Positions 5,451 to 46,678 of a stretch of DNA of 64,000 nt are shown here, piece by piece (the stretch's first letter is position 1; every line of letters begins with the position of its first letter). Below the pieces are notes generated by a model, which had not been told where the DNA came from, did no database searches, and was given only the letters and a program-made list of their open reading frames with translations. A program made the position numbers and the translations under genes. The DNA comes from an uncultured Gammaproteobacteria bacterium. GTDB taxonomy: Bacteria > Patescibacteriota > Microgenomatia > UBA10105 > UBA927. The stretch lies in the NCBI GenBank assembly GCA_964629685.1, contig CAZVTT010000001.1, positions 81,877 to 145,876 on the forward strand, read 5' to 3'.

Positions 5451-6170
5451 TTAAGAAATTATAGTACCGGTAAACGGTTTACCGTCAAGCGCGTCGGCCA
5501 AATTGGGAAGATTTTTCCCGTTCAGTATTTTCACGGTAATGCCGAGTTCATCCGCCAATCTGGAAGCGATGGGATCAAACGGCAAATTCATTCCGGGAAT
5601 CCATTTTTCTCCGGTCATGGCTCGGTAATCCTTCCAGGTAGAAGATGTAAGGGGTTTTGCGTCGGGGAATTTTCTGGGGTCTTTGTCGTATACTTGGTCG
5701 ATGTTTGTCAGATTTATGACTGTGGTAATTCCGTAATCCTGAGCTAGTGTTACCGCACAATAGTCAGTACTCCATCCCGGCTTCCAACCTGCCGCAATGG
5801 CGAGCGGTGCGTCTATTTTTAAAATAATTTCATAGTGTTTGATCACTCTGGGATCTGCTATATCACGGAAAATTGTCCTGACCATTTGTGCGTTTAATCT
5901 GGTAGCGTGAATTCCCAACCAATCCAGATCTACATCTTCAATGATACTGCCGCGAACCGTACGGGCTGCTTCCTGATATTGCCGCGTGGTAGCTCCCCCA
6001 CCGACAACTACAAAAAATCTCCTTTTTTTGGAGGAGATTTGATCACGGATGAATGTGTTTAAATCGTTAAGGAACTGGGTATCAATACCAGTAGGAGGTA
6101 CTACGAGCGACCCGCCGAGTGACAGGACAAATGTATCTTTCCCCAAACTCATAATAAAGACGGAGGGCAA
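5451..6170 (-). CDS. pyrH: Uridylate (UMP) kinase, archaeal type (amino-acid kinase family)
   Basis: VVVGGGATTRQY, LDWLGIHATRLNAQ and TNIDQVYDKDPRKFPDAKPL are colinear with the archaeal UMPK motifs GGGSTAR, LGIxAxRLNA and TNVDGVYxxDPR. Confidence 0.65.
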   Translation of the reverse strand: MPSVFIMSLGKDTFVLSLGGSLVVPPTGIDTQFLNDLNTFIRDQISSKKRRFFVVVGGGATTRQYQEAARTVRGSIIEDVDLDWLGIHATRLNAQMVRTIFRDIADPRVIKHYEIILKIDAPLAIAAGWKPGWSTDYCAVTLAQDYGITTVINLTNIDQVYDKDPRKFPDAKPLTSSTWKDYRAMTGEKWIPGMNLPFDPIASRLADELGITVKILNGKNLPNLADALDGKPFTGTIIS

Positions 6171-6235: not shown

Positions 6236-8377
6236 TCAGAAATCCTTCATCTGCCTGTACTTTTTAAACTTTTCGATTATTGTGGTACACACACGCATTA
6301 AAACCCCGGGACCAGCACCTACTTTTTTATCAATAAGCTCATAATCTTCCAGCGTAAACGACTCTAGTGCTTCTATGGTAGAGGCTCCCGACAGTCTGGG
6401 TAACGAATGCAGGAGTATAACGACAGAGTCGGTTAATTCTGATGGCTTAACATTTGATCCACCGATCATATCCTGAAACTCCGGATCAGCGGCTAAATCC
6501 TGCAACGATTGACGCTGTGATCTTGGCAGTACGGTATACACATCTACTGGAACGATTCTCCCCTGTCGGGAAACCCGGGATACTGGATGTCGCTTAATCA
6601 TACCCAACACTTTTAAATCCAAAAACAGCTGCTTAAATTCATACAATTTATTAACGGAAAGCGGATATTCGTTGTATAAACGATCAAGTTCCAGCGCTGT
6701 TAAACCTGCCGGATAGCGCTGCATCAACATATAAATCGCTGCCGCTCCCGTCCATCGGCTGTCGGATAATTCGACGGTATGGTTGTATACCTCCCCCGGA
6801 ACGCGTGCCTGTGTAGCGGCATAATACTCCTGCTGCAGGAATGTTCCTTCCGCTTGTTTCCAAATCTGCGATTTAGCCAAATTCAATGTCCGTTCTTCCT
6901 GATCCCCGAATTCGTCAGGCTGCCATAATTCCACGAACAATGTCCATTCGTTAAATTCATCCGAGCGGGAAACAACTCCCAAGTCCCTAAGTGCCCTGAT
7001 AAATCGCTGTACGCCGTCAGTTTGTGGTGCAATGGTATGATTTTTTCCGTTAATATAAATATCCCGTTGCCTGGTCACAAACTCTATATCCCGGTCTTCC
7101 ACACTTCCGGTCCGGTACGGTTCAACCACTAAGTGACGTGATGCCAGCACTGTTTCCCATTGTTCCCTTGTTACGTGCGATAGACCGGGAATGAGTGTGG
7201 CCAAACCGCCGTCACGTAGAGCCTGAATCGTAATATACGGATCGATTGTCAAACATAATGCTAATTCCCGTCTGGGAATGGTTAACGGATCGTTCAGCGT
7301 AGCCATGGCATCCAATAATCCGCGGGTTCGTGCCCGGAAAGAAAACAGCGTCCCCACTTCATACTGTGGCAACAGCATACCCAATTGAGGCAGAGTTAGT
7401 CGTCCTTCAGATACCGGAATATCCCTTACCGTATGCAGAAGATTCATACGCAACGAACGCAGTGCTATCTCCAATACATCCCCGGGTCTGTTGGATTCCG
7501 TCATTATTTCATCTTGCCCCTGCATCGCCGCAATAGCATCCTGCCGCAATGCATACCGAATTGTGGGATGTATTGAACCTCCTTGTTCAACCGTTAATTC
7601 TGCCACGCAAATATCCTGTTTCAGAGATGTTTTTCCCTGCCGTTTATCAGATTCGACGGCATTTCCGGTAGTCGGCAGTTCACCGATATCTATATGAAAA
7701 CCGCGCTTACCGGTATTCTTATCGATAAAAGAAATCGTCATCATCTGCCGGGAAGGATTTGTCGGAACCGGCCCCTCATACAATTCCATGTCCCAGTCCG
7801 CATATGTAGGATGTTCAAAACGCACGGTTCTCATTTCGTGATGACCGTTATTGGGAATACCTTTGGCAGGAGCTCTGGTGACTGCGTCAGTCGGAACTCC
7901 ATATAACGCGATAGCACGATCAAACATTAGAGGAATAGAACGGGCCGGACCGAAAATTTTGATATCAATATCCGCGGCGGCATCCGCAGATAGACTCCGG
8001 ATTAAACGCATTTCTTCGGATTCAATGGGAAAAACACCTTCAAGTTGATCCAGTTCCTGTTGTAAACTTCGGCTATACTCCCAAAAGCGTTCGGGAACGC
8101 CGTGTGCCATACATTTGGCTACACTCCCGCTTACTTCCACATGGGTTACTTCTCCTACCGCAAAAACCGAATTTACAAGCGCGGTTTGTACTAAATCCGG
8201 GATATCAGCATACTGATCTGGCCCGGCAGCCATATACCCCGCTAAGAAATGCTGCTCAAGGAAATCCCGCAACGTACCTTCCCGCACTATCTCTGCCGGT
8301 TCCAATCGTTCACTATCGTCATCATCTGTCGGAAGATAATTTCTATATCTTCCGAGGTATTGTTCGTACTGTGTCAT
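6236..8377 (-). CDS. Hypothetical protein, 713 aa, no recognisable domain
   Basis: A long uninterrupted ORF. Its start lies 7 nt downstream of the stop of the wHTH gene, so the two are operonic. No motif was recognised by eye. Confidence 0.5.
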   Translation of the reverse strand: MTQYEQYLGRYRNYLPTDDDDSERLEPAEIVREGTLRDFLEQHFLAGYMAAGPDQYADIPDLVQTALVNSVFAVGEVTHVEVSGSVAKCMAHGVPERFWEYSRSLQQELDQLEGVFPIESEEMRLIRSLSADAAADIDIKIFGPARSIPLMFDRAIALYGVPTDAVTRAPAKGIPNNGHHEMRTVRFEHPTYADWDMELYEGPVPTNPSRQMMTISFIDKNTGKRGFHIDIGELPTTGNAVESDKRQGKTSLKQDICVAELTVEQGGSIHPTIRYALRQDAIAAMQGQDEIMTESNRPGDVLEIALRSLRMNLLHTVRDIPVSEGRLTLPQLGMLLPQYEVGTLFSFRARTRGLLDAMATLNDPLTIPRRELALCLTIDPYITIQALRDGGLATLIPGLSHVTREQWETVLASRHLVVEPYRTGSVEDRDIEFVTRQRDIYINGKNHTIAPQTDGVQRFIRALRDLGVVSRSDEFNEWTLFVELWQPDEFGDQEERTLNLAKSQIWKQAEGTFLQQEYYAATQARVPGEVYNHTVELSDSRWTGAAAIYMLMQRYPAGLTALELDRLYNEYPLSVNKLYEFKQLFLDLKVLGMIKRHPVSRVSRQGRIVPVDVYTVLPRSQRQSLQDLAADPEFQDMIGGSNVKPSELTDSVVILLHSLPRLSGASTIEALESFTLEDYELIDKKVGAGPGVLMRVCTTIIEKFKKYRQMKDF

Positions 8378-8383
8378 AATATT

Positions 8384-9628
8384 CTATATTTTCAATATAT
8401 AACCTTTTCCGCGTACTGCCTGAAGTACTTTAGGGGAAACGGAAAGTTCAGCGAGTCGCTTGCGGACTCTGGCAATAATCTGATCAATTGCCCAGTCGGA
8501 ATACTGCGCATCGGTGTCTATCGGCCATAACCTGGCTGCCAATTCTTCACGGGTAACAATCGTCCCTTTTCTTTCCAACAGGAGTCGCAGCACTCTGTAT
8601 TCTTTACGGGGAAAAACCTGATCAATGGGTATTTGATTCATAAAAACATGATCGGTATCCATCGTCAGGGCTACTACTCCGGCTGCATGCTGACCGATAT
8701 ATTCCCCTAATACGCCCACTTTAAACGTATTGTCTGCATTTAGCACCCGCATATGCTTAAAATAATTTAAACTTTGTTCTTCTTCTGCCGAAAATCCCTG
8801 TTGGCCACGGGCGAGTTTTAATAAAATTTGTTGTTGATTTTGGGAGAGCAACGAGTATACCGTTTTAATCCTGAATTGCAAACTCTCATTCTCGATTGAC
8901 CACTTTCCATTGTGTGCAATTTGCCGCATTGCGTCCTTCACAAACCAAAAATGTCCTCCACAGCGGGTAATAATTTCCTGTTCCTGAGCAGACGTCAATG
9001 TCAAATTCCATTTGGTTTTTAGGTAGGTAATAAACGCCTGAGTATCCGCATCATCATACAGCGGATAATGAAACACATTCTCCAATAAAAACGTTGAACT
9101 CGGCAACAAAGGAAGGTAAGACGGATGTGTCAGATCCGATTCATAGAACCCAATCGTCGTTATATACGGTGCAAATTCAATTACCAAATAGGCAATATAC
9201 GAAAGAATAGTGTGGTTCGGCGGAATAAGATATTTTTCCATGTCAGGAAGAATGAGTACTAATCTGACATTTCTCTCGTGAAAATATGTCATCCACTCAT
9301 CAAAAGATTTGGGCGGAACACCCAGGCTCGGCATATTAAGCATCCTGGCAATATAATCCTGAATATCCATATGGTCTTCTACCACCGTCAGGCTAAAATC
9401 GACCATTTGGAACATATAGGTAGGACCTTTGCCGAGCGTCTCCTGCAGAAATTGCCTATCCTCCAGCAACTGTTGTAAACGGCGTAATCTGTCCGTTTTC
9501 GGAAAGAAAAGCACGGAGACATTTTCTCCGCGTCCCAACGCCCGCAACCACTGTTGCGCAGCATCACGATATTGAGCGGTACTTACCAGGGGGTAATTAG
9601 CTGCCATATTTAGTGGTGAGTATACCAC
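8384..9628 (-). CDS. Putative transcriptional regulator with a C-terminal OmpR/PhoB-type winged-helix DNA-binding domain and an atypical N-terminal domain (no receiver)
   Basis: The C-terminus reads YRVLRLLLERKGTIVTREELAARLWPIDTDAQYSDWAIDQIIARVRKRLAE...VRGKGYILKI, matching the trans_reg_C wHTH pattern. The N-terminal ~300 aa lacks the receiver D-D-K residues. The ORF starts with GTG at 9628, or alternatively with ATG at about 9607. Confidence 0.55.
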   Translation of the reverse strand: MVYSPLNMAANYPLVSTAQYRDAAQQWLRALGRGENVSVLFFPKTDRLRRLQQLLEDRQFLQETLGKGPTYMFQMVDFSLTVVEDHMDIQDYIARMLNMPSLGVPPKSFDEWMTYFHERNVRLVLILPDMEKYLIPPNHTILSYIAYLVIEFAPYITTIGFYESDLTHPSYLPLLPSSTFLLENVFHYPLYDDADTQAFITYLKTKWNLTLTSAQEQEIITRCGGHFWFVKDAMRQIAHNGKWSIENESLQFRIKTVYSLLSQNQQQILLKLARGQQGFSAEEEQSLNYFKHMRVLNADNTFKVGVLGEYIGQHAAGVVALTMDTDHVFMNQIPIDQVFPRKEYRVLRLLLERKGTIVTREELAARLWPIDTDAQYSDWAIDQIIARVRKRLAELSVSPKVLQAVRGKGYILKI

Positions 9629-9640
9629 GGTTAAACCTTG

Positions 9641-9658
9641 CTGACAATATTATGTCAG
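9641..9658. promoter_or_regulatory. Inverted repeat CTGACA-N6-TGTCAG, a candidate operator just upstream of the wHTH regulator gene
   Basis: The sequence ctgacaatattatgtcag lies 13-30 nt upstream of the annotated start, inside a 420-nt non-coding spacer. Confidence 0.3.
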
Positions 9659-10050
9659 CTAATTCGTCAAGCATTATCGGGCTATTTGCTCATAATACAC
9701 TCAATATATGTCATTTGTATTTACGAATATGAACGCAGATCTCTCGCCATTTTCATCTCAGGAAATATCCCCACCCCCGGGGCACGATGATGATGCTACT
9801 CAGACCTCATCTGAGTTACCGGGAGCACTTAAACAAGACAATTGGACTACAGAGACCATAATAATTAACGGGTTACCGCAGACAATCATCTTTCCCGAGG
9901 GCTAACTTCCCCAGGACGCCCGCGCACCTACACAGCAACAATTAAAGTGATTGTCACGGGAAACCGTTACGAAGGAAGGTTGCGATATAGGCCATGCTGT
10001 CGAAGATAGCGACGCTCACAAGGCGGCAGCATGGCTTCCGCAACAGAAAA

Positions 10051-11670
10051 TCATATTACCCCGAAGTGATCTGTAAACTCATCCAAATCTTCAGGAGTAT
10101 CCAGATCGCCTACCCACGAAACACCATCAAGTAGGATTAATTTTCCGAGTACGCCGGCTTTTGCCAAAGCATTTATAGCTTCCTGACTGTTACGGGTACC
10201 CGTTACCAACATTTTTCTGGTATCGCACGCAAAAACCAGCTTTTTTATATGCACTCTTCCATCTTCCTCAGCATCACGATCACATGACAGAATACGTCCA
10301 TCTATATCTAGCTTATAAGAATACTTAGACGTATCGGTAGGAATACCTACAACGACAAAAGGGTATCCTTCATCAACTAAGGCTGCTTTTATTCGCTCAC
10401 CGCATACTCTTAAGTTCTCTTCCGGTACATCTACTACTCTATCACCGGCTAAAGAGAGCAAAAACGTAGATTCAGGTAAAACCGTAAATAAATTGTTTAA
10501 GCTATCAGCAGGTCCGGTCATTCGGTCGTAAGCCGGCTCAATAAACGCAATGGGGATATCAGGCTGCGTTTCGGTTTTCCAACCGTCAAATTCAGCCTCA
10601 TGATCAGGTCGGCGCATCAACTGTATAGTCGGTTCAAAACCGTTTAGTTTTGTAAAAATCGTTAATGGCCGGATTGCCTTATCTAATACTGTATCTCCGT
10701 CCGGCAATCCCAACAATGATTTGGGACCATCACCTGTAATCGTCCGCAACCGCTCATTTTTTCCAGCAACCGCAATAGTAGTCTGTATTGTATTCGGATG
10801 ATGGTAAGGAGCATCTTCATGCCGTACAAGCGATCGTAAATTTGTATGCATTTGCTGTTGAAAAATTTCCGTTAAATGCTTCGGCAATTTTCTGCCACCG
10901 GTGGTCGGATTCAAATCTATAAAATACCATAACCCGGTTTCAGGATTCCGGATAAAATCAAAACCTCCCCAATATAATTTAAATTCATGCATTGCAAATT
11001 CACAAAATCTGGCTATCTGTGGAGGACACTCTTGCGGTTCAGTATCTCCTGCCCATGAAAGGTAATAAAACACATTTGGCGCTACACCGTACACCTTCAT
11101 CGTCTCCCCGTGAATCTGTTGTTGGAATACATAATCATCCTCTATCTGTCTGGCATGTGAAACGATAGTATCCCACACTTCACCTTGAGCAGGAATTTGA
11201 TACACGTTGTTACAAATAAGCCGCGTCTCACCAATCGTAATTCGCGGCTTCACAATACTCCCGCCCAACTGTTTATCCAATCTGGACACACCTTCTCTCA
11301 TCTTCCCGGATGTCTGCCAGGAAACGATTTTTTCTCTCGGAAGCATAATTGTAAGGGGCGTAGCTACATCATTTTGCCTGCACCAGTTATATAACTCCCA
11401 TTTATCCACTGCCCGCACCATCTGTTCGGGCGTAGGATACATTTCTACACCTGTGCGTGCGACTTCCTCAAATCGCACAGTTGAAGACATGGCAATTACA
11501 AAATCATTATCCGGATCAATTTCTGTGGGTGTATCACGATCCCGATACACATAGGGTATACCCGATGACCTCAAAGCTTCCGCAAACGCGCGGGATTTGG
11601 GAGATTCTCCTATCCGTTCACCGTATGCCAGTACTAATCTATTTGGTGTATCAAACCCCGTGTCAGACAT
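10051..11670 (-). CDS. Fusion protein: an N-terminal ATP-grasp ligase domain plus a C-terminal MobA/CofC-like nucleotidyltransferase domain
   Basis: 539 aa. The ATP-grasp C-terminal core reads GGFDFIRNPETGLWYFIDLNP, preceded by SIVKPRITIGE. The C-terminal ~170 aa ends LLDGVSWVGDLDTPEDL, the DxDTPEDL ending typical of MobA-like NTP transferases. Confidence 0.5.
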   Translation of the reverse strand: MSDTGFDTPNRLVLAYGERIGESPKSRAFAEALRSSGIPYVYRDRDTPTEIDPDNDFVIAMSSTVRFEEVARTGVEMYPTPEQMVRAVDKWELYNWCRQNDVATPLTIMLPREKIVSWQTSGKMREGVSRLDKQLGGSIVKPRITIGETRLICNNVYQIPAQGEVWDTIVSHARQIEDDYVFQQQIHGETMKVYGVAPNVFYYLSWAGDTEPQECPPQIARFCEFAMHEFKLYWGGFDFIRNPETGLWYFIDLNPTTGGRKLPKHLTEIFQQQMHTNLRSLVRHEDAPYHHPNTIQTTIAVAGKNERLRTITGDGPKSLLGLPDGDTVLDKAIRPLTIFTKLNGFEPTIQLMRRPDHEAEFDGWKTETQPDIPIAFIEPAYDRMTGPADSLNNLFTVLPESTFLLSLAGDRVVDVPEENLRVCGERIKAALVDEGYPFVVVGIPTDTSKYSYKLDIDGRILSCDRDAEEDGRVHIKKLVFACDTRKMLVTGTRNSQEAINALAKAGVLGKLILLDGVSWVGDLDTPEDLDEFTDHFGVI

Positions 11671-11733
11671 AAATATCCATACCTATGCTACTAGAAATTT
11701 CTCTATAACGCACATTTTAACCTATAGTTTACT

Positions 11734-12501
11734 TTGTTTTGGTTTACTGGTACAATCGACACTCGCTCAAAAACGTATATGCCGAGAATTGAAGCACAAA
11801 CCAGCGAACGAATAATCAGTAGTGTCGGCGGTTCTATCATCCGGCCGGACAGGCTTAATCAGCCGGTAGTAGATACCTTCATGGAGTTTTGCAGGAATGT
11901 TTTACATCAAAACAAGGCCGGCATTTTTATTATCGGTGGTGGCGGACAAGCACGACACGTGATAGAGGATGCCAAAGCCATGGGCGTAACCGATCCGGAC
12001 GCACTAGATCGTTTAGGCATCCAGGTAACCTGGCAAAATGTATTTATGCTTCATGAAATTTTTACCGCTGGTAATATAGCAGTAGCTATCCGTACGGCAG
12101 ACCCGCAACCCCAGTCGGGCATAATTTATTTACAGGGAGGTGGTGCACCGGGTCATACCACAGACTATGAAGCTGTTAAAGCTGCAATTCAAACAGGAGA
12201 ACACTTAGTAGTCAATATTTCCAATACACCCGGATTACACCCAGCTTTAGCTGACGGTTCACTAAAAACCGATGAAATAATAAGTGAAATCAGTATCGAC
12301 AGATACCTCAATATGTTCACACCGGGACATGAACCTGGCAGAAATCTGCCGTTTGATACGAACGCAGCCCTGCTGGCCAGAGAACACGATATTACCATCG
12401 CGCTGTCAGGTGCCGACTTTTCCAACGTTTTCCATATTTTGAACGGAGAAAACTTTGAAGGTACACTGATAACTCCGGTGTCTCAAACGGTTCACCCCTG
12501 A
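11734..12501 (+). CDS. Amino-acid-kinase family protein, a divergent UMP-kinase-like paralog
   Basis: IIGGGGQARHVIEDAKAMG and LDRLGIQVTWQNVFM are colinear with archaeal UMPK. The TNVDGVYxxDPR motif is replaced by NISNTPGLHPALADGS. The gene is divergent from the ATP-grasp/NTase fusion, with a 63-nt spacer. Confidence 0.55.
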   Translation: MFWFTGTIDTRSKTYMPRIEAQTSERIISSVGGSIIRPDRLNQPVVDTFMEFCRNVLHQNKAGIFIIGGGGQARHVIEDAKAMGVTDPDALDRLGIQVTWQNVFMLHEIFTAGNIAVAIRTADPQPQSGIIYLQGGGAPGHTTDYEAVKAAIQTGEHLVVNISNTPGLHPALADGSLKTDEIISEISIDRYLNMFTPGHEPGRNLPFDTNAALLAREHDITIALSGADFSNVFHILNGENFEGTLITPVSQTVHP

Positions 12502-13322
12502 CAAACCGGACAGACATACGTTCCCCGCCCCATAAACATTACTTTCCGTATCAATGCGCCACACCGCGCACATGGTTGTTTTGCCTGCCCGTACACCCGG
12601 AAATGGTCCTGTACCGTTCCTTTATGCCCAAAAGCATCCCGGAAATTATCCGATGATGCCCCCTGCCAACGGATAGCTGCGCTCATCACCGATTCCAGAC
12701 AATCAAATAATAACCCGGCTTGTTTCTGTGTTAACGAATTTGCTTTTCTCATAGGATGTAGCTTTGCACTCCACAATGCTTCATTCGCATAAATATTTCC
12801 TATGCCTGCCACCTTCTGTTGATCCAGGAGCAGTACTTTTATTGGACGGGTACTTCCTGTCACTATTTCCACAAATCGGGCTTTCGTTAAATTGCGGAAA
12901 AATTCCGGCCCCAACGTTTTTACGTAATTCAACTGCTCCACGGAATCGGTCGGAATTATCTGTACAAAACCGAAAGTACGTTGATCATGAAAATACAAAG
13001 ATGTACCGTCTGTGAATGTCACCACCACGTGCGTATGCTTATCGGTAGCATACTCTACATCCCATTCCTGCAAAACTGTTTTCTGTGCAACCACCACTCT
13101 GCCTGTCATTTTCAAATGAATAATAACGGAATAATTACCGGTTACATCAATAACGAGTAATTTACTGTATCTGCGTACCCGCAGCACCGTTTGAGAGAGA
13201 AGAAAATCCACATTTCCATGAAATGATTTTGCGCGACGGATATCTACGGAAGATACTGTTAACCCCGGTAATATACCGGCAAGTTGTGCACGCACCGTTT
13301 CAACCTCGGGAAGTTCTGGCAT
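12492..13322 (-). CDS. mutM: Formamidopyrimidine-DNA glycosylase (Fpg/MutM)
   Basis: The N-terminus MPELPEVE supplies the catalytic Pro2. The C-terminal zinc finger reads CARCGALIRK...GRGTYVCPVCQG. The start is trimmed to the MPELPEV Met, because an N-terminal proline is required. Confidence 0.85.
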   Translation of the reverse strand: MPELPEVETVRAQLAGILPGLTVSSVDIRRAKSFHGNVDFLLSQTVLRVRRYSKLLVIDVTGNYSVIIHLKMTGRVVVAQKTVLQEWDVEYATDKHTHVVVTFTDGTSLYFHDQRTFGFVQIIPTDSVEQLNYVKTLGPEFFRNLTKARFVEIVTGSTRPIKVLLLDQQKVAGIGNIYANEALWSAKLHPMRKANSLTQKQAGLLFDCLESVMSAAIRWQGASSDNFRDAFGHKGTVQDHFRVYGQAKQPCARCGALIRKVMFMGRGTYVCPVCQG

Positions 13323-13335
13323 GGAGTGTACTATA

Positions 13336-15459
13336 TCATACGGACTCATCCGGTACGGTACGTCCTGCAAATTTTTCAGCTAAATCCGTAGAAACAATCC
13401 GATCATCAATCGTAACGGACTTGGTCCAGAGTGCAAACGCCTGCCGCATCACGGATTCCGACTCCGGCTTGAGACGCAGTAATCGGTCAATTTCATCCAC
13501 TTGTTCATCGGTCAAACGAAATACTTTAAATAAACGCGTTTCCGCTAATTTTCGCTCTAACGTGTCAAGTCGTTCCATTAACGGCACGGATCTTGGCCGT
13601 TTAATTTGACTGTCTGTCATGTCGCGTTTAACCGAAAGCACGTGTTCAGCAGATTTTATCGTCGCATCTTCCCGGCGGATTAATGTCCCGCGTTTGCGGT
13701 ATACCATTCCCCGTACGCCTTCTTCAAACACTAACACATTTTCCAGTTGTCCCGCTTCATTTACCAAACGGGCAAGATCCATTTCCGTGAGAATCATTGC
13801 CTGATCCTGCAGTGTTTCCAGAACATAAGGAATAACCGGCGCAACATCGTTTAACCTCCGCACTACATCGGCATCATCCCGTCGGATAAACATATCGTCG
13901 TTCACAACGTCGGCAGTCTTTCCGTACGCGATACACGTTTGAACCAATGCTTCCGTCGGTTCGCGCTGCGGACTACGAAAATGCCGTACAGTCAGCACGT
14001 TCATCATCATCTTCATCCGCTTTACATCTCCGGCTTGTGTGGGTATTGGCAAAATTTCCGCAGGAGAACCGTCAAGATCATCAAAAACTACCTCTTCAAG
14101 TAATAAATTATTTCCGACCGTTATTTCTTCCGCAGCTATAAAAACAGACTCAGGATTTATTCCCAATTCCCTACACCATTGCCCGATCACTTCAGCAGAT
14201 ATGTTCTGTGACAACGCGTAAGATAAAAGATTCAGTCTGTCTTCAAACGAGCCCAACGGCAAATCCTCATTTCGCTTAAGATGTCTGAATCCGCCGGGAA
14301 GATGCTTCGGAACAATATCCGACGCGTTGGCGGTCATGCCCGAGTCCTGATCGGCATCCACTACTCCACCACGATCCAGGTGCGGATACTTTTCTTTTTG
14401 CTCAGCGGTAAACTTCCGTTTATCTTTCATAAGAAACCCCCCGAGACAGACATCCGATTCACTGGCCATGCTGGCAACCATCGTTGCTAAAAAATCCTTG
14501 TTTATCTGATGTTTTGCAAGAATTTCCGGTAATCCTTCTGCCTCCGTTTCCAACAGATGGGAAATAGAATCTGCCAGTACTTCATCTTCACTAAACGTCA
14601 CGCCCACGGTGGCATCTCCCCGCTTTCGTGTTTTCATAAACACATCTCCCCATCCGGGTGTCATCACATCATGTAAATACGCTGCCATAACCAAATATTT
14701 ACCGTACTCCGTTGCCTGAAGTAATGCTTCCGTTTCCGTAGCATCAAAATATACTCCTCCGTTAGCAATAGATCTGGCTACCGCCGTTTTCGTGGACTCG
14801 GAGGGAACCAATACAAACGGATCGCTGACACGGCCGGCCATTTCCGAATACCGCTGCATATCAGTGTCAACTCGACGCAAATAAAGCGCAGGTCTCTGCA
14901 GGGCCATCCGGATATTGGTTTGTACCACCATCCGTGCCAAGTGCTGGCTATGATCTGCCCGCGTCAGTCTGTCATCCTGTAACCGCACGTCCGTCTGCCC
15001 AATACCAGCTAACCGTTTCATACCGGGAGTAGCATTTAACATTACCGTAAGCGCCTCTGGGTCACCGGTAAAACCCACATGCAATTCCACATTATCGTCA
15101 CTGCCTCTTTCCGCTGCCTTGCGGGGAGAACGGATACCATACACGCGCTCGGCAATTTCCCGACGTACTAATCGTTGTTCACGGGATAATGAAGTAAGTT
15201 CCGTATGCGCGAACGCATCGGGGTTCACCGGTTTTACCGGCGTATCAGGCGGAAACAACACATCCTGCAGCAATCGGTCATATTCATTCATACTGGTGGT
15301 ATCTACGATTACCCGTAGACGCTCTTCCAGAGACAAATCTGCTAAATCATGATGCTCTCCCGTCCTGGGATGTATCCAAGATTTTGGGGCATGTTCCGGA
15401 GCTGGTGTTAAACCACTATCGTGTTCGGCATGCAGCAGAACTTCAGGAGAATCGGGCAT
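13336..15459 (-). CDS. Hypothetical protein, 707 aa
   Basis: A long ORF with no recognisable motif. Its stop lies 14 nt before the mutM start. Confidence 0.5.
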   Translation of the reverse strand: MPDSPEVLLHAEHDSGLTPAPEHAPKSWIHPRTGEHHDLADLSLEERLRVIVDTTSMNEYDRLLQDVLFPPDTPVKPVNPDAFAHTELTSLSREQRLVRREIAERVYGIRSPRKAAERGSDDNVELHVGFTGDPEALTVMLNATPGMKRLAGIGQTDVRLQDDRLTRADHSQHLARMVVQTNIRMALQRPALYLRRVDTDMQRYSEMAGRVSDPFVLVPSESTKTAVARSIANGGVYFDATETEALLQATEYGKYLVMAAYLHDVMTPGWGDVFMKTRKRGDATVGVTFSEDEVLADSISHLLETEAEGLPEILAKHQINKDFLATMVASMASESDVCLGGFLMKDKRKFTAEQKEKYPHLDRGGVVDADQDSGMTANASDIVPKHLPGGFRHLKRNEDLPLGSFEDRLNLLSYALSQNISAEVIGQWCRELGINPESVFIAAEEITVGNNLLLEEVVFDDLDGSPAEILPIPTQAGDVKRMKMMMNVLTVRHFRSPQREPTEALVQTCIAYGKTADVVNDDMFIRRDDADVVRRLNDVAPVIPYVLETLQDQAMILTEMDLARLVNEAGQLENVLVFEEGVRGMVYRKRGTLIRREDATIKSAEHVLSVKRDMTDSQIKRPRSVPLMERLDTLERKLAETRLFKVFRLTDEQVDEIDRLLRLKPESESVMRQAFALWTKSVTIDDRIVSTDLAEKFAGRTVPDESV

Positions 15460-19575: not shown

Positions 19576-21183
19576 TTAATCCACAATTTGAACCACGGTT
19601 ATATTGTTCTCCGAGTAAACTACTTTAAAAAACGGAAAATCCATATACTTCGTTTGATCAAACGCAATCGAATCCGCGCCGAAGACTACATATGAAACAT
19701 GATACCGGCTTAACAAAGCACGTACATCAACCTCAGGCATCGTACCGTAAAAAAACGTAATTATCTCTGTTCTCTTTAACCCGTAATCCGGATTAGTTCC
19801 TTCATGACCAATTAAAACTTTATTGTCGGTAAAACCCGGAATCATGACACTGAGCATCTCTCCTGCCATTACAATACTATTTTTTGGAGTAGACGCTAAA
19901 AATGCCAATACTTTTTTGGATGCATCAAGCGTGTAGTAATTATAAAAGAAAGAATTTTCCGGATTTGAAATATCTTTGCCGGTAAAATACCCCGGTACCA
20001 CCGCATAGGCAAAAGTACAAACGAATACTCCCGCAGTCATAACGTATTGCCACCGGCTTCTTTCCAAAATACTTTCCAGACTCATGGCAGCGAGTAATGC
20101 GAATGGTATCTGCAGGAAAAGCTGCGACAATCGGACAGTACTTGTCGGTAATCTCAGATAGCCCAACACGTGTATAAAAAGTGGAATACATCCCCAAAGC
20201 ACGACAAACCGACGAATTGCGCATGAATACGTCCTTTTCATGAAAAATGCCGGGATCGCCAGTATTAAAACCGGACCTATGGCTGCAAATAAATACCATA
20301 TCGGATCTGCGGGTTGAGTCCAGATAAATGTTCCGTGTAAAGCCTGATACGATTTCCATTGATAGAGCAAAAGATGTCGGTAATACAGTGCAACAAGCAC
20401 GATGGGTACAACAATCGCACCAGTTCGGAACAACAATGGTATATGCAGCTTTCGGGTACGTACCAGTTCCCAAATAAGAAATATGCCGATTAATATCGTC
20501 GTGTATCCTGCTATATACGGATGAACAAATCCGAATACAATTCCCAGCATAATTCCAATACCATACCAGTACCATTTTTTTTGGTTGGATAGCAGGTAAT
20601 AGAAACTGACTATTACCAGTAAAACGGCTAAATAATGATGCGGAGGGATGGCAGTATACTTCAGTAGAATATTAAAAAAATTAGAATACGTCGTCGGCTC
20701 CCAATACTCCCACGACCATTCCCCTTTTCGTATCCACCAGAAACTAGTGGCAGTACTAAATAAACCGATAGCCAACAGTTTACTCCGTGTCCGGACAAAA
20801 AAATGCTCAGTCAACAGGATAACCCCACCCAAAAGTATTCCAAGCGACACCACTCTGGCTATTGCATATGCTTTAAAGGGAGACGTAGTAAACGGTTTGC
20901 TGAATAGGCCTATTACCGGGTAATGAGGTTCAAGAATATACGGAGAAACATCATCGTATCGGAATGCATCTTCATACAACAGTTTTCCCTGTTGTCCACT
21001 GCGGACTAAATATATGTATTGAAAGTAATCCTTCAAAAAGTACTGCGGATAACCATACATGGTACTTCCTGGCCATGTCCGTTCTCCGATACTTATCGTA
21101 CCGAACAGGATAACGAAAATAAAACAAATAAATCCAAGACACCCGAACAAATACACGCGCACGGAATGCGGCACGGTAGTCAT
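19576..21183 (-). CDS. Polytopic membrane protein, a putative GT-C fold glycosyltransferase with a C-terminal extracytoplasmic domain
   Basis: 535 aa with many hydrophobic segments and a ~120 aa soluble C-terminal domain. It is paired with the upstream ArnT/PMT-like gene, with a 1-nt gap. Confidence 0.45.
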   Translation of the reverse strand: MTTVPHSVRVYLFGCLGFICFIFVILFGTISIGERTWPGSTMYGYPQYFLKDYFQYIYLVRSGQQGKLLYEDAFRYDDVSPYILEPHYPVIGLFSKPFTTSPFKAYAIARVVSLGILLGGVILLTEHFFVRTRSKLLAIGLFSTATSFWWIRKGEWSWEYWEPTTYSNFFNILLKYTAIPPHHYLAVLLVIVSFYYLLSNQKKWYWYGIGIMLGIVFGFVHPYIAGYTTILIGIFLIWELVRTRKLHIPLLFRTGAIVVPIVLVALYYRHLLLYQWKSYQALHGTFIWTQPADPIWYLFAAIGPVLILAIPAFFMKRTYSCAIRRFVVLWGCIPLFIHVLGYLRLPTSTVRLSQLFLQIPFALLAAMSLESILERSRWQYVMTAGVFVCTFAYAVVPGYFTGKDISNPENSFFYNYYTLDASKKVLAFLASTPKNSIVMAGEMLSVMIPGFTDNKVLIGHEGTNPDYGLKRTEIITFFYGTMPEVDVRALLSRYHVSYVVFGADSIAFDQTKYMDFPFFKVVYSENNITVVQIVD

Positions 21184-21184
21184 G

Positions 21185-22759
21185 TTATTTTATTGCGTAA
21201 ATCGAAACCAACGGAACACCGTCTACGGTCTCCGAGAATAGAGGAGTTTTATTTTTATAATAATCCCAATAAACGTCCGCATTTACCCGAAAAAAGCCCT
21301 GTCTGGCGAGAATAATGGCATAGTCACAGGAGGAAAAATCACCGGAATATACTGTAGATTGATCAACCAGGGAAACCGGTATTTCTTTTACAATCCCCTG
21401 ATACCAGTATCCTTTCAGTAAATCCGGCCAGGGAAAAACACAATACGTAGCAGTAGGATGTTGCTGTAAAAACGGAATTACTGCTTTATACGAGCTTCCC
21501 CAATATTCCGTTTCGTACCCCCGTAGTTGTGCACCCTTTACCCCTCCCACTAACTCACTGGCATACACGTACTGGTACGGATGAATTCTCAATGACACAA
21601 AACAGACATATATCGTTAACACCAATACCGTCAACGGAAAAATTGGCCTATGAGTTTGGATCATCCGGCGGAAACGGTCCAACCCGATAACGGACATTAC
21701 TACCGCAAAAGGATAAGCAGGGAGAAACAATCGCTCACCATCATATTGAATCGCATACGGCAGCGTCATCATGACTAAGGGGACAAACAGATTTATCAGC
21801 ATAAAACGCTCATATTTACGGGGCTTAAGGAGCGCACTGGCAATACCCACAAGTCCAAAAATTACCACCGGTAACGGAATGGTGGTAAACAGCAGCACAA
21901 ACGAATAGTGCCAGGGGGCCATATTCCCTTCCACGTTTGTGTACTGTTGTCCTAAGTAGTACACATCAATCGGATAATGCTCTAGCATCAGCGACGTATA
22001 GAACCGGAAACGCCCGATAGGATCAGGCCAAAGATACGGCCAGCATATCAAAAAAATACCGAGAGGAATTAAAACTAATAGTGTTGTTTTTAATACCAAC
22101 GGCAGTATCCAGAACCGGCGTCGGGAATGTATACCCTGCCAAAGCCCGACTATAGTGATATAGGATCCTACTGTCACACCTAACAACGCTCCCTGCAATT
22201 TTGTTGCGAGAGAAATTCCCAGGAGGATAAGTACCACGACATAACTTTTTATCGATGTCACTGCCTGTACGCTAACTACAGCTGTAGCCAACCACAACGC
22301 CGTTATCGGAAAATCTAATGCACCGAGATGCGCATGATAAAAGACTCTGGGGAGTAAAATTGCTGTCAAACCGGCATAAACCCCTAGCCACTTACCGTAA
22401 TTTTTTGAAACGAACCATGTCATCGTCCCGGATAACAACATCACAAAAGGGAGTATTCCCAACCGAAATGCGTCTATTTGATTCATGAGACCAAACACAT
22501 CAAAGAAGATATGTCGCGTTATGCCGCCGGAAATTTTAAATATCGGCGGATGCCTGTCATGTATTGGCCATTGCGCGACGATTGAATCCCACGTCGGATG
22601 TAATAACCAAGCCGTATTGGCTTTGGCAATGGACATATAGAACGATTCATCTGCAGAAAGTCCGTAATCCGGGATAGTAAAAGCCACCAGTAATCCGGCA
22701 CACAATGCTACCAGGAGACTTAGCATCCCCACAGAAACGGAAAGTCTCTTTCGACTCAT
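21185..22759 (-). CDS. GT-C family membrane glycosyltransferase (ArnT/PMT/family 39-83-like)
   Basis: 524 aa, polytopic. An N-terminal first-loop motif SADESFYMSIA resembles the catalytic DE-containing loop of ArnT/PMT-type lipid-linked sugar transferases. Confidence 0.5.
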   Translation of the reverse strand: MSRKRLSVSVGMLSLLVALCAGLLVAFTIPDYGLSADESFYMSIAKANTAWLLHPTWDSIVAQWPIHDRHPPIFKISGGITRHIFFDVFGLMNQIDAFRLGILPFVMLLSGTMTWFVSKNYGKWLGVYAGLTAILLPRVFYHAHLGALDFPITALWLATAVVSVQAVTSIKSYVVVLILLGISLATKLQGALLGVTVGSYITIVGLWQGIHSRRRFWILPLVLKTTLLVLIPLGIFLICWPYLWPDPIGRFRFYTSLMLEHYPIDVYYLGQQYTNVEGNMAPWHYSFVLLFTTIPLPVVIFGLVGIASALLKPRKYERFMLINLFVPLVMMTLPYAIQYDGERLFLPAYPFAVVMSVIGLDRFRRMIQTHRPIFPLTVLVLTIYVCFVSLRIHPYQYVYASELVGGVKGAQLRGYETEYWGSSYKAVIPFLQQHPTATYCVFPWPDLLKGYWYQGIVKEIPVSLVDQSTVYSGDFSSCDYAIILARQGFFRVNADVYWDYYKNKTPLFSETVDGVPLVSIYAIK

Positions 22760-24201: not shown

Positions 24202-24594
24202 TTATACTGTACCTTCAGCAAATACACGCAAAGCCGAAACCAGATCAGTCACGGTAGTGTAGTATATCCGATCGTCTACCCGGAACAGACCGTATCGTTT
24301 ATCAACCAGGAGCATCCGCTGATATCCTGATAAATTCCCGCCGTAGCGAAATTGAATATCCGCAAACTTTTTCGCAAGTTGCTTGTACATTATTTTCGGT
24401 CCATATCCATACCGGATAACGGAAATACCGCTAGCCGCTTGCAACGAAACTAATCGGTGATAGTTCTGTGGCAATGGTTGACGCGATTCTTCCACCATGT
24501 CCATCGTCATAAACACTTCGATTTTTGCACGCTTCACTAAACGCGTGGCAAAATGCACCACATCTGACGATTGCACTTGCGTTATAAATTTCAT
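24202..24594 (-). CDS. Hypothetical protein, 130 aa
   Basis: Its start overlaps the stop of the upstream 509-aa ORF (ATGA-type 4-nt overlap), implying translational coupling. Confidence 0.4.
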   Translation of the reverse strand: MKFITQVQSSDVVHFATRLVKRAKIEVFMTMDMVEESRQPLPQNYHRLVSLQAASGISVIRYGYGPKIMYKQLAKKFADIQFRYGGNLSGYQRMLLVDKRYGLFRVDDRIYYTTVTDLVSALRVFAEGTV

Positions 24595-29543: not shown

Positions 29544-29730
29544 ATTATGACACGCTAAGAAAAGTATAGAGATTGCATAGGTTGAGTGCAAACAGAAGTG
29601 ATACCGTGGAATCGTAATACGAAAACAGAACGCGCAGGCATCGAAGGAATCACTCTCCGCGGTAAACCGCAGAAAATAACAACCTCGATGCCTAAGCCCC
29701 TAGGCTCAAATGCGCGATCCATTCAGAAAA

Positions 29731-45920: not shown

Positions 45921-46102
45921 AAAAAAACCTTCTACTCCGAGAAGGTTAAGATACGAAAAAATATGATACGCCAATTCTTCCGTATAAATTCCTGCTCGGG
46001 ATAGGTACGAGTGAGGCGAGTTCCGGACTTTTCCGATATACTTCGGAATCACCGTTGCGGCACAGTGGCGGATTTTCACCGCCTTCCTTCATCCTCTCTC
46101 TT

Positions 46103-46678
46103 TTATTTATTAATACGCCTGCGTGGTATTCTGAACCAATCTACATCTGCAACACCAGCATCACTATTTATAAACCGCGCGAGCTGAAAAAACAAGTCCG
46201 ATAATCTGTTTATATATTTGATTATCGCTTCCATCTGTGGTGGAGACAAATGAAAATCAGTTGGTTGCAGTTGGTAAAATGATACCACCCGCCGTTCTAC
46301 CCGCCTGCAAACTGACCTGGTTATATGCGTATATGCGGCAATGGTAGTGCCGCCCGGCAGGATAAAATTATTCAATTCCGGCAGCTTCTCTTCCATCGTG
46401 TCTATCCATACCTCCATGTCTTCCGCACAAACAGCTAATTGATGAACGTCACCACCCCATCCCGCCAATACTCCTCCGATAGTAAACAGATCAGACTGTA
46501 CGTCCTGCAAAAAGTTTCTTGTATCCTCATCCGTAATTTGTGACGCTACCAACCCTACCCAACTATTTAACTCATCAATCGATCCGTACACGTCAACCAA
46601 ATCATGTGACTTGGAAACCCGCTTGCCGCCAAAGAGTGATGTTTCTCCTTTATCTCCTGTTTTCGTATAGATTGGCAT
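46103..46678 (-). CDS. ATP:cob(I)alamin adenosyltransferase, PduO type
   Basis: The N-terminus MPIYTKTGDKGETSLFGGKRVSKS is the hallmark PduO-type signature (IYTKTGDxGxTsL). Confidence 0.8.
   Translation of the reverse strand: MPIYTKTGDKGETSLFGGKRVSKSHDLVDVYGSIDELNSWVGLVASQITDEDTRNFLQDVQSDLFTIGGVLAGWGGDVHQLAVCAEDMEVWIDTMEEKLPELNNFILPGGTTIAAYTHITRSVCRRVERRVVSFYQLQPTDFHLSPPQMEAIIKYINRLSDLFFQLARFINSDAGVADVDWFRIPRRRINK

What the first reader, a model, noticed from the sequence alone, without database searches (positions are those of the whole stretch)
10051..12501. Divergent gene pair: an ATP-grasp/MobA-like nucleotidyltransferase fusion and a second, divergent UMP-kinase-like amino-acid-kinase paralog
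The window holds a canonical archaeal-type pyrH (5451..6170). A second paralog keeps the GGGG and LGIxxxxxN motifs but has lost the TNVDGVY..DPR segment, so it probably phosphorylates something other than UMP. It sits head-to-head, with a 63-nt spacer, against a single polypeptide that fuses an ATP-grasp ligase to a CofC/MobA-type NTP transferase ending DLDTPEDL. A kinase, a nucleotidyltransferase and an ATP-dependent ligase together make a coherent three-step logic: phosphorylate, nucleotidyl-activate, ligate. That is the logic used for cofactor and small-molecule biosynthesis such as F420 or CDP/GDP-activated headgroups, or for glutamyl tailing. I do not recognise this exact fusion.
Basis: partly seen in the sequence, partly recalled or inferred. 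Interest (0 to 1): 0.65.

Follow-up and report, generated by a model that had tools for sequence, protein, structure and literature searches.

The report
Rare ATP-grasp–nucleotidyltransferase fusion beside divergent UMP-kinase paralog
A tiny-genome (CPR-type) bacterium carries a very rare, uncharacterised two-domain enzyme (an ATP-dependent ligase fused to a nucleotide-activating enzyme) next to a remodelled second copy of UMP kinase; both genes are real and under selection, but their linkage is only partly conserved and their product is unknown.

Summary
Both genes are real. Gene X (10051..11670, minus strand, 539 aa) has no Pfam hit on its own. A 12-sequence family alignment gives a confident model (pLDDT 86.8). 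Its N-terminal half matches ATP-grasp ligases and its C-terminal half matches sugar/alcohol-phosphate nucleotidyltransferases. The catalytic motifs of both halves are invariant.

The fusion is very rare: about ten clusters among 1.84 billion representative proteins. None was found in the pattern-based scans of GTDB species genomes or JGI metagenomes, nor in the plasmid, phage, PDB or viral-structure searches.

The kinase paralog AAK2 really starts at ATG 11779, so it is 240 aa and the spacer is 108 nt, not 63. It scores 82 bits on the archaeal UMP-kinase model (cutoff 158); the canonical pyrH scores 164.5. AAK2 keeps the UMP/phosphate-acceptor residues. The segment it lost is the ATP-donor contact, so the sequence does not show that it "phosphorylates something other than UMP".

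A non-canonical UMPK-like kinase sits next to X in three of four CPR-clade lineages, once beside pyrB-carAB. It is missing in the closest relative (77% identical X) and in the distant family members.

The domain reading is supported. The three-step pathway remains conjecture.

Separately, a strongly conserved RNA-like element lies just downstream of X.

The parts
10051..11670 (-). Gene X: 539-aa fusion protein (ATP-grasp + nucleotidyltransferase), database protein P0001
   Evidence: ORF. Only 3 homologs in the word-indexed search. The exhaustive profile search gave 25 hits, about 10 of them full-length fusion clusters. AF2 model pLDDT 86.8, pTM 0.89. dN/dS about 0.05 against P0002.
10807..11670 (-). 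ATP-grasp half of X (aa 1 to about 288), including a pre-ATP-grasp subdomain
   Evidence: Foldseek matches PsnB 7dro (8.5e-11), PruB 9bou, DdlB and LysX. The N-domain profile matches the microviridin ligase AMdnB 7m4s at E=7.7e-5, followed by MdnB, MdnC, PruB and CdnC. Pfam ATP-grasp_3 matches 3 of 12 family members, best 3e-6. Invariant residues are Y78, P79, K90, T107, K141, Q183, K192, G236, D238, D252 and N254; R260 is nearly invariant. D252-x-N254 is the Mg-binding E/D-x-N motif.
10051..10797 (-). Nucleotidyltransferase half of X (aa about 292-539), ending GDLDTPEDL
   Evidence: Foldseek matches inositol-1-P cytidylyltransferase 4jd0 (2.3e-11), RmlA, ADP-Glc pyrophosphorylase and HddC. 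The C-domain profile matches LicC 1jyk (3.1e-7), eIF2B-gamma, MurU and HddC. Pfam NTP_transf_3 matches 8 of 12 members (best 7e-7) and NTP_transferase 6 of 12 (best 2e-7). Invariant residues are G303, R307, P316, K317, D410 and Y452. The signature is AAGKNERL..PKSLL.
11671..11778 (.). 108-nt divergent spacer between the start codons of X and AAK2
   Evidence: Sequence. A promoter-like TTTACT-17-TACAAT site with an upstream TG lies at 11728-11756 on the plus strand.
11779..12501 (+). AAK2: 240-aa divergent paralog of archaeal-type UMP kinase (database protein P0004); its 3' end overlaps the convergent fpg gene by 10 nt
   Evidence: Pfam AA_kinase 29.1 bits. TIGR02076 pyrH_arch 82.2 bits against a cutoff of 158.05. 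PDB best hit is P. furiosus UMPK, 1e-11. Subfamily P0004-P0009 found; motif comparison. The segment 11671-12515 has no counterpart in the L003/L004 relative.
5451..6170 (-). Canonical archaeal-type pyrH (UMP kinase), same strand as X and downstream of it, separated by two intervening genes
   Evidence: TIGR02076 164.5 bits, above the 158.05 cutoff. In locus L005 the ortholog lies immediately downstream of the X homolog.

Best explanation
Shown. X is a bifunctional enzyme from a very rare, uncharacterised family. It has a catalytically intact ATP-grasp carboxylate ligase domain that packs against a catalytically intact phospho-sugar/phospho-alcohol nucleotidyltransferase domain.

Inferred mechanism. 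The ATP-grasp half activates a carboxylate as an acyl-phosphate and joins it to an amine or hydroxyl of a phosphorylated small molecule. The NTase half couples that molecule's phosphate to the NMP of an NTP, probably a pyrimidine NTP. The product would be an NDP-activated conjugate, such as a cell-envelope or cofactor-type precursor. The order of the two steps is unknown.

Role of AAK2 (inferred). AAK2 is derived from UMP kinase. It keeps the NMP/phosphate-acceptor site and has a remodelled phosphoryl-donor site. It most likely acts as an accessory nucleoside-monophosphate-type kinase, turning UMP, CMP or a close analogue into the diphosphate. That would feed or recycle the pyrimidine nucleotide the NTase consumes. 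It is less likely to make the NTase's phospho-substrate. The coupling is loose, since one lineage keeps X after losing AAK2 from the locus.
For: Domains.
- The AF2 model has pLDDT 86.8 and pTM 0.89, consistent with a compact two-domain unit.
- Foldseek matches both halves at E of 1e-10 to 1e-11.
- Profile-to-PDB searches give LicC at 3e-7 and AMdnB at 8e-5.
- Pfam hits appear in family members.
- The ATP, Mg and NTP-binding residues are invariant across roughly 25-40%-identical members: K141, K192, D238, D252, N254 in the ATP-grasp half and G303, R307, K317, D410 in the NTase half.

Selection. X has dN/dS of about 0.05.

AAK2.
- It keeps the GGS and GGG loops and the Arg, Asp and Thr that bind UMP's phosphate and ribose in UMPKs.
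- It lacks the Tyr and Asp of the VY..DP donor contact.
- It is conserved as a small subfamily, P0004-P0009.

Linkage.
- A sub-cutoff UMPK-like kinase flanks X in the window (divergent), in L005 (divergent) and in L010 (co-directional, upstream). That is two different arrangements at 35-39% X identity.
- In L010 the pair lies beside pyrB-carA-carB, guaA, a dNK-like kinase and PRTase-like genes.
- In L005 the canonical pyrH follows X directly.
Against: - No substrate is identified, and nothing here shows which NTP or which acid/amine is used.
- The nearest relative (X 77% identical) has a clean absence of AAK2 between fpg and X.
- The P0019 and P0022 loci have no AAK nearby. None was seen on the short P0020, P0023 and P0024 contigs, which show only part of X's surroundings.
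- The window and L005 share synteny (fpg-AAK2-X...pyrH-recF), so they may count as one event by descent.
- It is unresolved whether the three X-adjacent kinases are orthologs. The NJ clade has only 38% bootstrap, and the L005 and L010 kinases are as close to canonical pyrH as to AAK2.
- In L010 the kinase could simply be that organism's UMPK.
- The Gottesmanbacteria AAK2 ortholog has no X within about 3 kb upstream or 8 kb downstream.
Confidence: 0.38

Rival explanations
1. The two genes are not functionally coupled. AAK2 is a second UMP-kinase isozyme or a regulatory, hetero-oligomerising paralog of PyrH. It arose by local duplication of pyrH, and its position next to X is inherited synteny. 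X works on its own.
For: AAK2 is cleanly absent in the closest relative while X stays under strong selection. In L005, X is flanked by AAK2 on one side and pyrH on the other, as a local duplication would leave them. The Gottesmanbacteria AAK2 ortholog is syntenic with the GT4, 5'-3' exonuclease and FtsH genes but has no X nearby. The acceptor-site residues for UMP are retained. The non-CPR-clade X homologs with long flanks lack any AAK neighbour.
Against: An AAK-X pair recurs in L010 in a different arrangement and different surroundings. All X-adjacent kinases score below the UMPK equivalog cutoff, while a canonical pyrH is also present in the window and in L005. The donor-contact residue that matches E. 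coli Asp174, whose mutation strongly lowers activity, is not kept at the aligned position.
Confidence: 0.3
2. The ATP-grasp half of X acts as a kinase rather than a ligase. It would make the phospho-substrate that the fused NTase then nucleotidylates. X would be a one-protein 'kinase + pyrophosphorylase' salvage enzyme, analogous to FKP, HldE or AmgK/MurU, and AAK2 would be peripheral.
For: Kinase-NTase fusions and pairs are an established logic, and some ATP-grasp enzymes are kinases, such as inositol-trisphosphate 5/6-kinase (both from established knowledge). One family member weakly matches Ins134_P3_kin (E=0.0085). The top structural NTase match is an inositol-1-phosphate cytidylyltransferase. 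The NTP-binding signature AAGKxER(L/M) resembles MurU's AAGKGERM. The high pTM suggests tight domain packing, which would suit substrate hand-over.
Against: The closest sequence relatives of the N-domain are acyl-phosphate-forming ligases: graspetide macrocyclases, Ddl and LysX. The inositol-kinase hit is a single sub-threshold match.
Confidence: 0.17
3. AAK2 phosphorylates a non-nucleotide metabolite, the NTase half of X converts it to an NDP derivative, and the ATP-grasp half ligates it. F420-type or CDP/GDP-headgroup biosynthesis follows this kind of logic.
For: The kinase-X adjacency is seen in three lineages. UMPK-like AAK enzymes with non-nucleotide acceptors exist, such as isopentenyl phosphate kinase and FomA (established knowledge). 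A PF01996 (F420_ligase) gene lies about 3.6 kb from the P0019 homolog, on the far side of uvrB and the 396-aa gene.
Against: The AAK fold phosphorylates carboxylate, phosphate or phosphonate oxygens, so its product would be an acyl-phosphate or a diphosphate, neither of which is a typical NTase substrate (established knowledge). AAK2's acceptor-side residues remain UMPK-like, and the changes sit on the ATP side. The NTase half shows no CofC/MobA-specific similarity. The pairing is dispensable.
Confidence: 0.1
4. X modifies a peptide or protein. It would be a graspetide-type ATP-grasp that activates Asp/Glu side chains, coupled to nucleotidylylation.
For: By sequence profile, the best ATP-grasp relatives are the omega-ester peptide macrocyclases AMdnB, MdnB, MdnC, PruB, CdnC and PsnB. 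The GGFDFI...WYFIDLNPT motif is of their type.
Against: No precursor-peptide gene was found. The only conserved small ORF near X (65 aa, 9708..9905, plus strand) is conserved at the nucleotide level rather than the codon level, and the conservation runs beyond it. The similarity covers general ATP-grasp motifs. Ddl and LysX match as well by structure.
Confidence: 0.05

Closest known systems
Bifunctional or paired 'activate then nucleotidylate' enzymes: FKP (fucokinase/GDP-fucose pyrophosphorylase), HldE, AmgK-MurU, LicA-LicC
   Same: A GT-A-type phospho-sugar/alcohol NTase is joined to, or paired with, an ATP-using enzyme. LicC and MurU are the best sequence-profile matches of the NTase half.
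   Different: The partner domain here is an ATP-grasp, not a GHMP, APH or ribokinase-type kinase. No ATP-grasp + NTase two-domain protein was found in the PDB or BFVD searches.
Graspetide (omega-ester peptide) ATP-grasp ligases MdnB/MdnC, PsnB, PruB, CdnC, and Ddl/LysX
   Same: They share the fold, the pre-ATP-grasp subdomain, the Lys/Lys/Gln ATP contacts and the D...D/E-x-N Mg site.
   Different: Identity is only 13-15%. No precursor peptide gene was found. The domain is fused to an NTase. X has Asp instead of Glu in the E-x-N motif.
Campylobacter O-methyl-phosphoramidate pathway (Cj1418 ATP-grasp-type glutamine kinase, Cj1416 cytidylyltransferase, Cj1415 kinase); recalled from memory
   Same: It uses the same three enzyme classes (ATP-grasp-fold enzyme, MobA/LicC-like NTase, a further kinase) to build an NDP-activated group donor.
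   Different: No homology was tested here. The kinase there is APS-kinase-like, not AAK-fold, and the ATP-grasp there is of the PPDK type. This is an analogy only.
Archaeal-type UMP kinase (TIGR02076; P. furiosus PyrH, PDB 2BRX/2BMU)
   Same: It is AAK2's best match over its full length (E=1e-11). AAK2 shares the AAK fold signature, the glycine loops, and the Arg, Asp and HTTD acceptor-site residues.
   Different: AAK2 scores 82 bits against a 158 cutoff. The VY..DP ATP-contact motif is replaced by (L/V)HP...DG, and the subfamily has its own MPR(I/L)E N-terminus. AAK2 coexists with a canonical pyrH in the same genome.
   Same: The same two enzyme superfamilies occur in one pathway.
   Different: No specific similarity to CofC/MobA was found (a MobA-related chain scores E=2.8). 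No other F420 genes are in the window.

Membership tests
ATP-grasp superfamily (X, aa 1-288) | Three-subdomain ATP-grasp fold | tested here: met
   A Foldseek search with the pLDDT 86.8 model matches PsnB, PruB, DdlB and LysX at E of 1e-10 to 4e-10, prob 1.00.
ATP-grasp superfamily (X, aa 1-288) | Conserved ATP-binding lysines, hinge Gln and Mg-binding D...E/D-x-N | tested here: met
   K141, K192, Q183, D238, D252 and N254 are invariant in 12 sequences. They align with the AMdnB motif region.
ATP-grasp superfamily (X, aa 1-288) | Passes a curated ATP-grasp HMM | tested here: inconclusive
   The window protein has no Pfam hit. Three of 12 family members match ATP-grasp_3, best 3e-6.
Graspetide macrocyclases (MdnB/C, PsnB type) | Adjacent precursor-peptide gene with a conserved Thr/Ser/Lys-Asp/Glu core | tested here: not met
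   No such ORF was found. The only conserved small ORF (9708..9905) shows nucleotide-type rather than codon-type conservation. NCBIfam maturase models score 16-17 bits against cutoffs of 350-425.
Sugar/alcohol-phosphate nucleotidyltransferases (Pfam NTP_transferase / NTP_transf_3) (X, aa 292-539) | GT-A-like NTase fold | tested here: met
   Foldseek matches 4jd0 (2.3e-11; TM 0.67 normalised to the target), HddC (TM 0.72), RmlA and AGPase.
Sugar/alcohol-phosphate nucleotidyltransferases (Pfam NTP_transferase / NTP_transf_3) (X, aa 292-539) | N-terminal (A/G)GxGxR(L/M)...PK NTP-binding signature and a downstream acidic metal ligand | tested here: met
   G303, R307, P316, K317 and D410 are invariant. 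They align to LicC, MurU and eIF2B-gamma. The assignment of D410 as a metal ligand is inferred from the alignment.
Sugar/alcohol-phosphate nucleotidyltransferases (Pfam NTP_transferase / NTP_transf_3) (X, aa 292-539) | Passes the curated HMM cutoff | tested here: inconclusive
   The window domain alone gives NTP_transf_3 at 12.4 bits against a cutoff of 27. Eight of 12 family members match (best 7e-7). The family profile matches LicC at 3e-7.
CofC / MobA subfamily specifically | Closest similarity to CofC or MobA rather than to other NTases | tested here: not met
   The best matches are LicC, eIF2B-gamma, MurU, HddC, IPCT and RmlA. A MobA-related chain (2we9) scores E=2.8.
Archaeal-type UMP kinase, TIGR02076 (AAK2) | Score above the equivalog cutoff | tested here: not met
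   AAK2 scores 82.2 bits against 158.05. Its relatives score 89-119 bits. The canonical pyrH copies score 164.5 and 169.3.
Archaeal-type UMP kinase, TIGR02076 (AAK2) | UMP (acceptor) site residues: Gly loop, Arg, Asp, Thr of HTTD | tested here: met
   G53-55, R59, D77, T128 and D129 are invariant across AAK2 and the canonical sequences. Their roles are taken from PMC12404492.
Archaeal-type UMP kinase, TIGR02076 (AAK2) | ATP (donor) contacts: Tyr146 and Asp149 (P. furiosus numbering), i.e. the VY..DP motif | tested here: not met
   The motif is replaced by LHPALADG. Tyr becomes His, and there is no Asp at the aligned position. A D/N-G two residues downstream might substitute; this was not tested.
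Archaeal-type UMP kinase, TIGR02076 (AAK2) | UMP kinase activity | not testable with these tools
   Requires an enzyme assay or pyrH complementation.
Isopentenyl phosphate kinase (AAK2) | Match to NF040647 IPPK_Arch | tested here: not met
   AAK2 has no hit at E<=1. The L010 kinase scores E=0.0068, 15.7 bits, against a cutoff of 120.

The most novel reading that the evidence does not exclude
X and the AAK2-type kinase form a previously unknown two-gene module in a narrow clade of CPR bacteria. The module would synthesise a new pyrimidine-NDP-activated, amide- or ester-linked metabolite, such as a new envelope precursor or group donor. The kinase would be a UMPK descendant that has changed its phosphoryl donor or now acts on a pathway-specific nucleotide intermediate. 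In the P0019 lineage a sulfotransferase-like partner may take a corresponding accessory role.
Probability: 0.2. Interest if true: 0.7.

Novelty: new variant of a known kind. Interest (0 to 1): 0.5.

Why it matters
CPR/Patescibacteria genomes are minimal. A 539-aa enzyme kept at dN/dS of about 0.05 in a genome of roughly 0.95 Mb is probably important to the cell. Yet its domain architecture has no characterised or solved counterpart and is almost absent from public data.

Working out its product could reveal a new nucleotide-activated metabolite in an episymbiotic lineage. The AAK2 subfamily is a natural experiment: the UMP-kinase scaffold is re-tooled on its donor side while the acceptor side is kept. 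The practical value for now is two well-defined targets for biochemistry. No pathway has been solved.

Tried and rejected
- Pfam, NCBIfam and PDB sequence searches with the window protein alone gave only sub-threshold hits.
- AF2 with a 3-sequence alignment failed (pLDDT 39). It succeeded only after the exhaustive profile search supplied distant homologs.
- A third word-indexed search with the 17-sequence alignment returned nothing new.
- GTDB species genomes (two scans) and JGI metagenomes (one scan) contained no X homolog. The wider alignment was too divergent for pattern scanning.
- Plasmid and phage tblastn searches found nothing.
- The PADLOC defence models gave no hit for X, AAK2 or their neighbours, so a defence-system reading was dropped.
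- The N-terminal extension of P0020 is not homologous to the 396-aa neighbour of P0019. That neighbour's sulfotransferase-like motifs (PRTGST, RNP.....S) rest on my own reading plus Pfam E=0.074, and no PDB hit supports them.
- The organism's name could not be recovered from the cluster look-ups. The closest named relative of AAK2 is a Candidatus Gottesmanbacteria protein.
- Literature searches found no description of this fusion or of a second UMPK paralog in Patescibacteria.


Full report
**Observation**

The window looks like a CPR/Patescibacteria genome. Its source contig is 953,690 bp. Many large ORFs have no Pfam hit, and the pyrH is of the archaeal type.

Both ORFs in the finding exist.
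- X lies at 10051..11670 on the minus strand (539 aa).
- The kinase ORF was read from TTG 11734, but its true start is ATG 11779 (240 aa). The database protein P0004 starts there. The MPR(I/L)E N-terminus is shared across the subfamily. A promoter-like site at 11728-11756 would fall inside the longer ORF.
- The head-to-head spacer is therefore 108 nt, not 63.
- The canonical pyrH (5451..6170) passes the TIGR02076 equivalog cutoff, 164.5 bits against 158.05.

**What X is**

The window protein alone hits nothing in Pfam. It gives only weak matches: an ATP-grasp peptide-maturase tail at aa 211-256 and an NTase N-terminus at aa 296-333.

The word-indexed search of 5.8 billion proteins found only three family members: X itself, P0002 (77% identical) and P0003 (39%). 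An exhaustive HMM search of 1.84 billion representatives with that three-sequence profile found 25 hits. About ten of them are full-length fusions of 493-548 aa, and one is 837 aa with an extra N-terminal region.

With 12 sequences, AlphaFold2 improved from pLDDT 39 to pLDDT 86.8 and pTM 0.89. A Foldseek search of the PDB then matched both halves:
- The C-terminal half matched inositol-1-phosphate cytidylyltransferase (2.3e-11), RmlA, ADP-glucose pyrophosphorylase and HddC.
- The N-terminal half matched the ATP-grasp ligases PsnB, PruB, DdlB and LysX, at about 1e-10.

Family profiles searched against PDB sequences agree:
- The C-domain matches LicC (3.1e-7), eIF2B-gamma, MurU and HddC.
- The N-domain matches the microviridin ligase AMdnB (7.7e-5), followed by MdnB, MdnC, PruB and CdnC.

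Scanning family members individually, 8 of 12 match NTP_transf_3, 6 of 12 match NTP_transferase and 3 of 12 match ATP-grasp_3.

The invariant residues are the catalytic ones:
- K141, K192 and Q183 (ATP contacts);
- D238 and D252-x-N254 (Mg);
- G303, R307 and K317 (NTP signature AAGxxxR..PK);
- D410.

X is under strong purifying selection, with dN/dS of about 0.05 and synonymous sites saturated. The NTase, however, is LicC/MurU/HddC/IPCT-like rather than specifically CofC/MobA-like: a MobA-related chain scores only E=2.8.

**How rare it is**

No homolog turned up in the pattern-based scans of one genome per GTDB species or of JGI metagenome contigs. None turned up in PLSDB plasmids or GenBank phages. 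No two-domain counterpart exists in the PDB or BFVD libraries. PADLOC gave no hit. Literature searches found no description.

**What AAK2 is**

AAK2 belongs to the amino-acid-kinase family. Its nearest relative is archaeal-type UMPK: P. furiosus PyrH matches at 1e-11 over the full length. It still scores only 82 bits on TIGR02076. Relatives P0006, P0007 and P0009 score 89-114 bits. AAK2 has no hit on the isopentenyl phosphate kinase model.

Alignment A2 shows what is kept and what is lost:
- Kept: GGS, GGG..R, D77, G80, T84, N87 and GHTTD.
- Lost: N(V/I)D.VY..DP, replaced by NTPG(L/V)HP..DG.

According to the T. thermophilus UMPK structure paper (PMC12404492):
- The Gly loop, Arg, Asp and the Thr of (T/S)TD bind UMP/UDP.
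- The Tyr and the Asp of VY..DP (P. furiosus Tyr146 and Asp149; the Asp matches E. coli Asp174) bind the adenine nucleotide.
- Mutating E. coli Asp174 strongly lowers activity.

So the acceptor side of AAK2 is conserved and the donor side is remodelled. From general knowledge, AAK-fold enzymes phosphorylate carboxylate, carbamate, phosphate or phosphonate oxygens, not alcohols. 'Phosphorylate, then nucleotidylate that phosphate' is therefore not the obvious chemistry for this kinase.

**Is the pairing conserved?**

Loci with a kinase next to X:
- Window (also seen as L001/L002): the order is fpg, then AAK2 divergent from X, then a conserved intergenic element, a regulator gene, a 713-aa gene, pyrH and recF.
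- L005-L007 (X 39% identical): fpg, a 73-aa ORF, a 241-aa AAK divergent from X, then pyrH directly downstream.
- L010 (X 35% identical): pyrB-carA-carB on one strand; on the other, a 248-aa AAK and then X. These are followed by a HAD hydrolase, a PRTase-like gene, guaA, an HD protein and a dNK-like kinase. PyrB was confirmed with TIGR00670 at 315 bits.

All three X-adjacent kinases fall below the UMPK cutoff, at 82, 119 and 119 bits.

Loci without a kinase next to X:
- L003/L004 (X 77% identical): fpg abuts X with a 78-nt gap. Window positions 11671-12515 have no counterpart there.
- P0019: X overlaps a 396-aa gene and the pair sits between uvrB and uvrA.
- P0022: the locus has an ordinary non-CPR-looking context with no AAK.
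- P0020, P0023 and P0024: the contigs are short and show no AAK.

The Gottesmanbacteria AAK2 ortholog has no X within about 3 kb upstream or 8 kb downstream.

An NJ tree places all non-canonical kinases together, but with only 38% bootstrap support. The L005 and L010 kinases form a 99% pair. By BLAST they are as close to canonical pyrH as to the window's AAK2.

In short, the association is recurrent and appears in two different arrangements, which is suggestive. But it is confined to one clade, it is dispensable, and it is partly explained by shared synteny.

**Most likely mechanism (inferred, confidence about 0.4)**

X makes an NDP-activated conjugate. The ATP-grasp half forms an amide or ester through an acyl-phosphate. 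The NTase half joins a phosphate on the molecule to the NMP of an NTP, probably a pyrimidine NTP given the genomic company. AAK2 is an accessory NMP-type kinase that feeds or recycles the nucleotide.

Rivals:
- AAK2 is an unrelated second UMPK or regulatory paralog (0.3).
- The ATP-grasp half is a kinase, so X alone is a kinase-pyrophosphorylase (0.17).
- X modifies a peptide (0.05).

None of these can be separated further without biochemistry or complete-genome co-occurrence statistics.

**Side finding**

The 443-nt gap downstream of X contains a block of about 225 nt (9816-10040). This block is 80-100% identical to the ortholog's gap. In the flanking genes, third codon positions are only 46-50% identical. 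There is no Rfam match. The block occurs once in the window.

Folded as RNA on X's strand, it has a z-score of -2.84. The two-sequence consensus fold has 63 predicted pairs. Two pairs show compensatory changes, two show one-sided changes that keep pairing, and none is broken. This looks like an undescribed structured RNA or leader.

Noticed in passing
window 9816..10040 (probably minus strand), within the gap 9608..10050: A block of about 225 nt just downstream of X's stop is 80-100% identical to the same gap in L003/L004. Third codon positions of the flanking genes are only 46-50% identical, so this reflects strong nucleotide-level constraint. It has no Rfam match and occurs once. Its fold z-score is -2.84. 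Of 63 predicted pairs, 2 are compensatory and none is broken, with many G-U pairs on the minus strand. It is a candidate novel structured RNA or leader. One exact-pattern scan of JGI metagenomes found no further copies.
   Followed up: partly
window 8387..9607 (-): A 407-aa protein with a C-terminal Trans_reg_C (OmpR/PhoB-type winged helix) domain and an unannotated N-terminal region of about 330 aa. It is 96% identical in protein sequence to its L004 ortholog, while neighbouring genes are 70-77% identical. Its synonymous sites are nevertheless saturated. A promoter-like TTGTCA-17-TATACT site ends 11 nt before the ATG at 9607, so the mRNA may have almost no leader. Together with the RNA-like element and the 713-aa gene, it sits between X and pyrH; L005 lacks all three.
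   Followed up: partly
window 11671..12515 vs L003 3915..4016: The whole AAK2 gene is an indel relative to the closest relative. L005 has a kinase at the same position, so loss in the L003 lineage is the more parsimonious reading.
   Followed up: yes
L011 4023..5213 (+), overlapping the X homolog P0019 (5215..6861), between uvrB and uvrA: A 396-aa protein with sulfotransferase-like PAPS-binding motifs (PRTGST; RNPALSMES). Pfam Sulfotransfer_5 gives only E=0.074, and there is no PDB sequence hit. In this lineage it may take the place of the kinase as X's partner.
   Followed up: partly
P0020 (L014 219..2732): An X homolog of 837 aa carries an extra N-terminal region of about 300 aa. This region has no Pfam hit and is not similar to the 396-aa protein of L011.
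   Followed up: partly
window 45998..46137 (-): A cobalamin riboswitch (Rfam RF00174, 40.2 bits, above the gathering score). It lies downstream of a class II-like ribonucleotide reductase (47123..49564) and upstream of two ORFs of about 200 aa.
   Followed up: no
window 27645..29591 (-): A GH5 cellulase with a CBM2 cellulose-binding domain in a genome that otherwise looks CPR-like and minimal.
   Followed up: no
window 6236..8377 (-), 13336..15459 (-), 19576..22759 (-), 24591..26120 (-), 29731..32088 (-), 42646..44919 (-): A run of large ORFs (509-785 aa) with no Pfam family. The only exception is a weak HD-domain hit in the 707-aa protein. That protein is conserved (77% identity) next to fpg in L003.
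   Followed up: no
window 39781..42165 (-): A 794-aa protein with HerA/DUF87 and TrwB-type coupling-protein ATPase signatures. It may be a type IV secretion or conjugation component.
   Followed up: no
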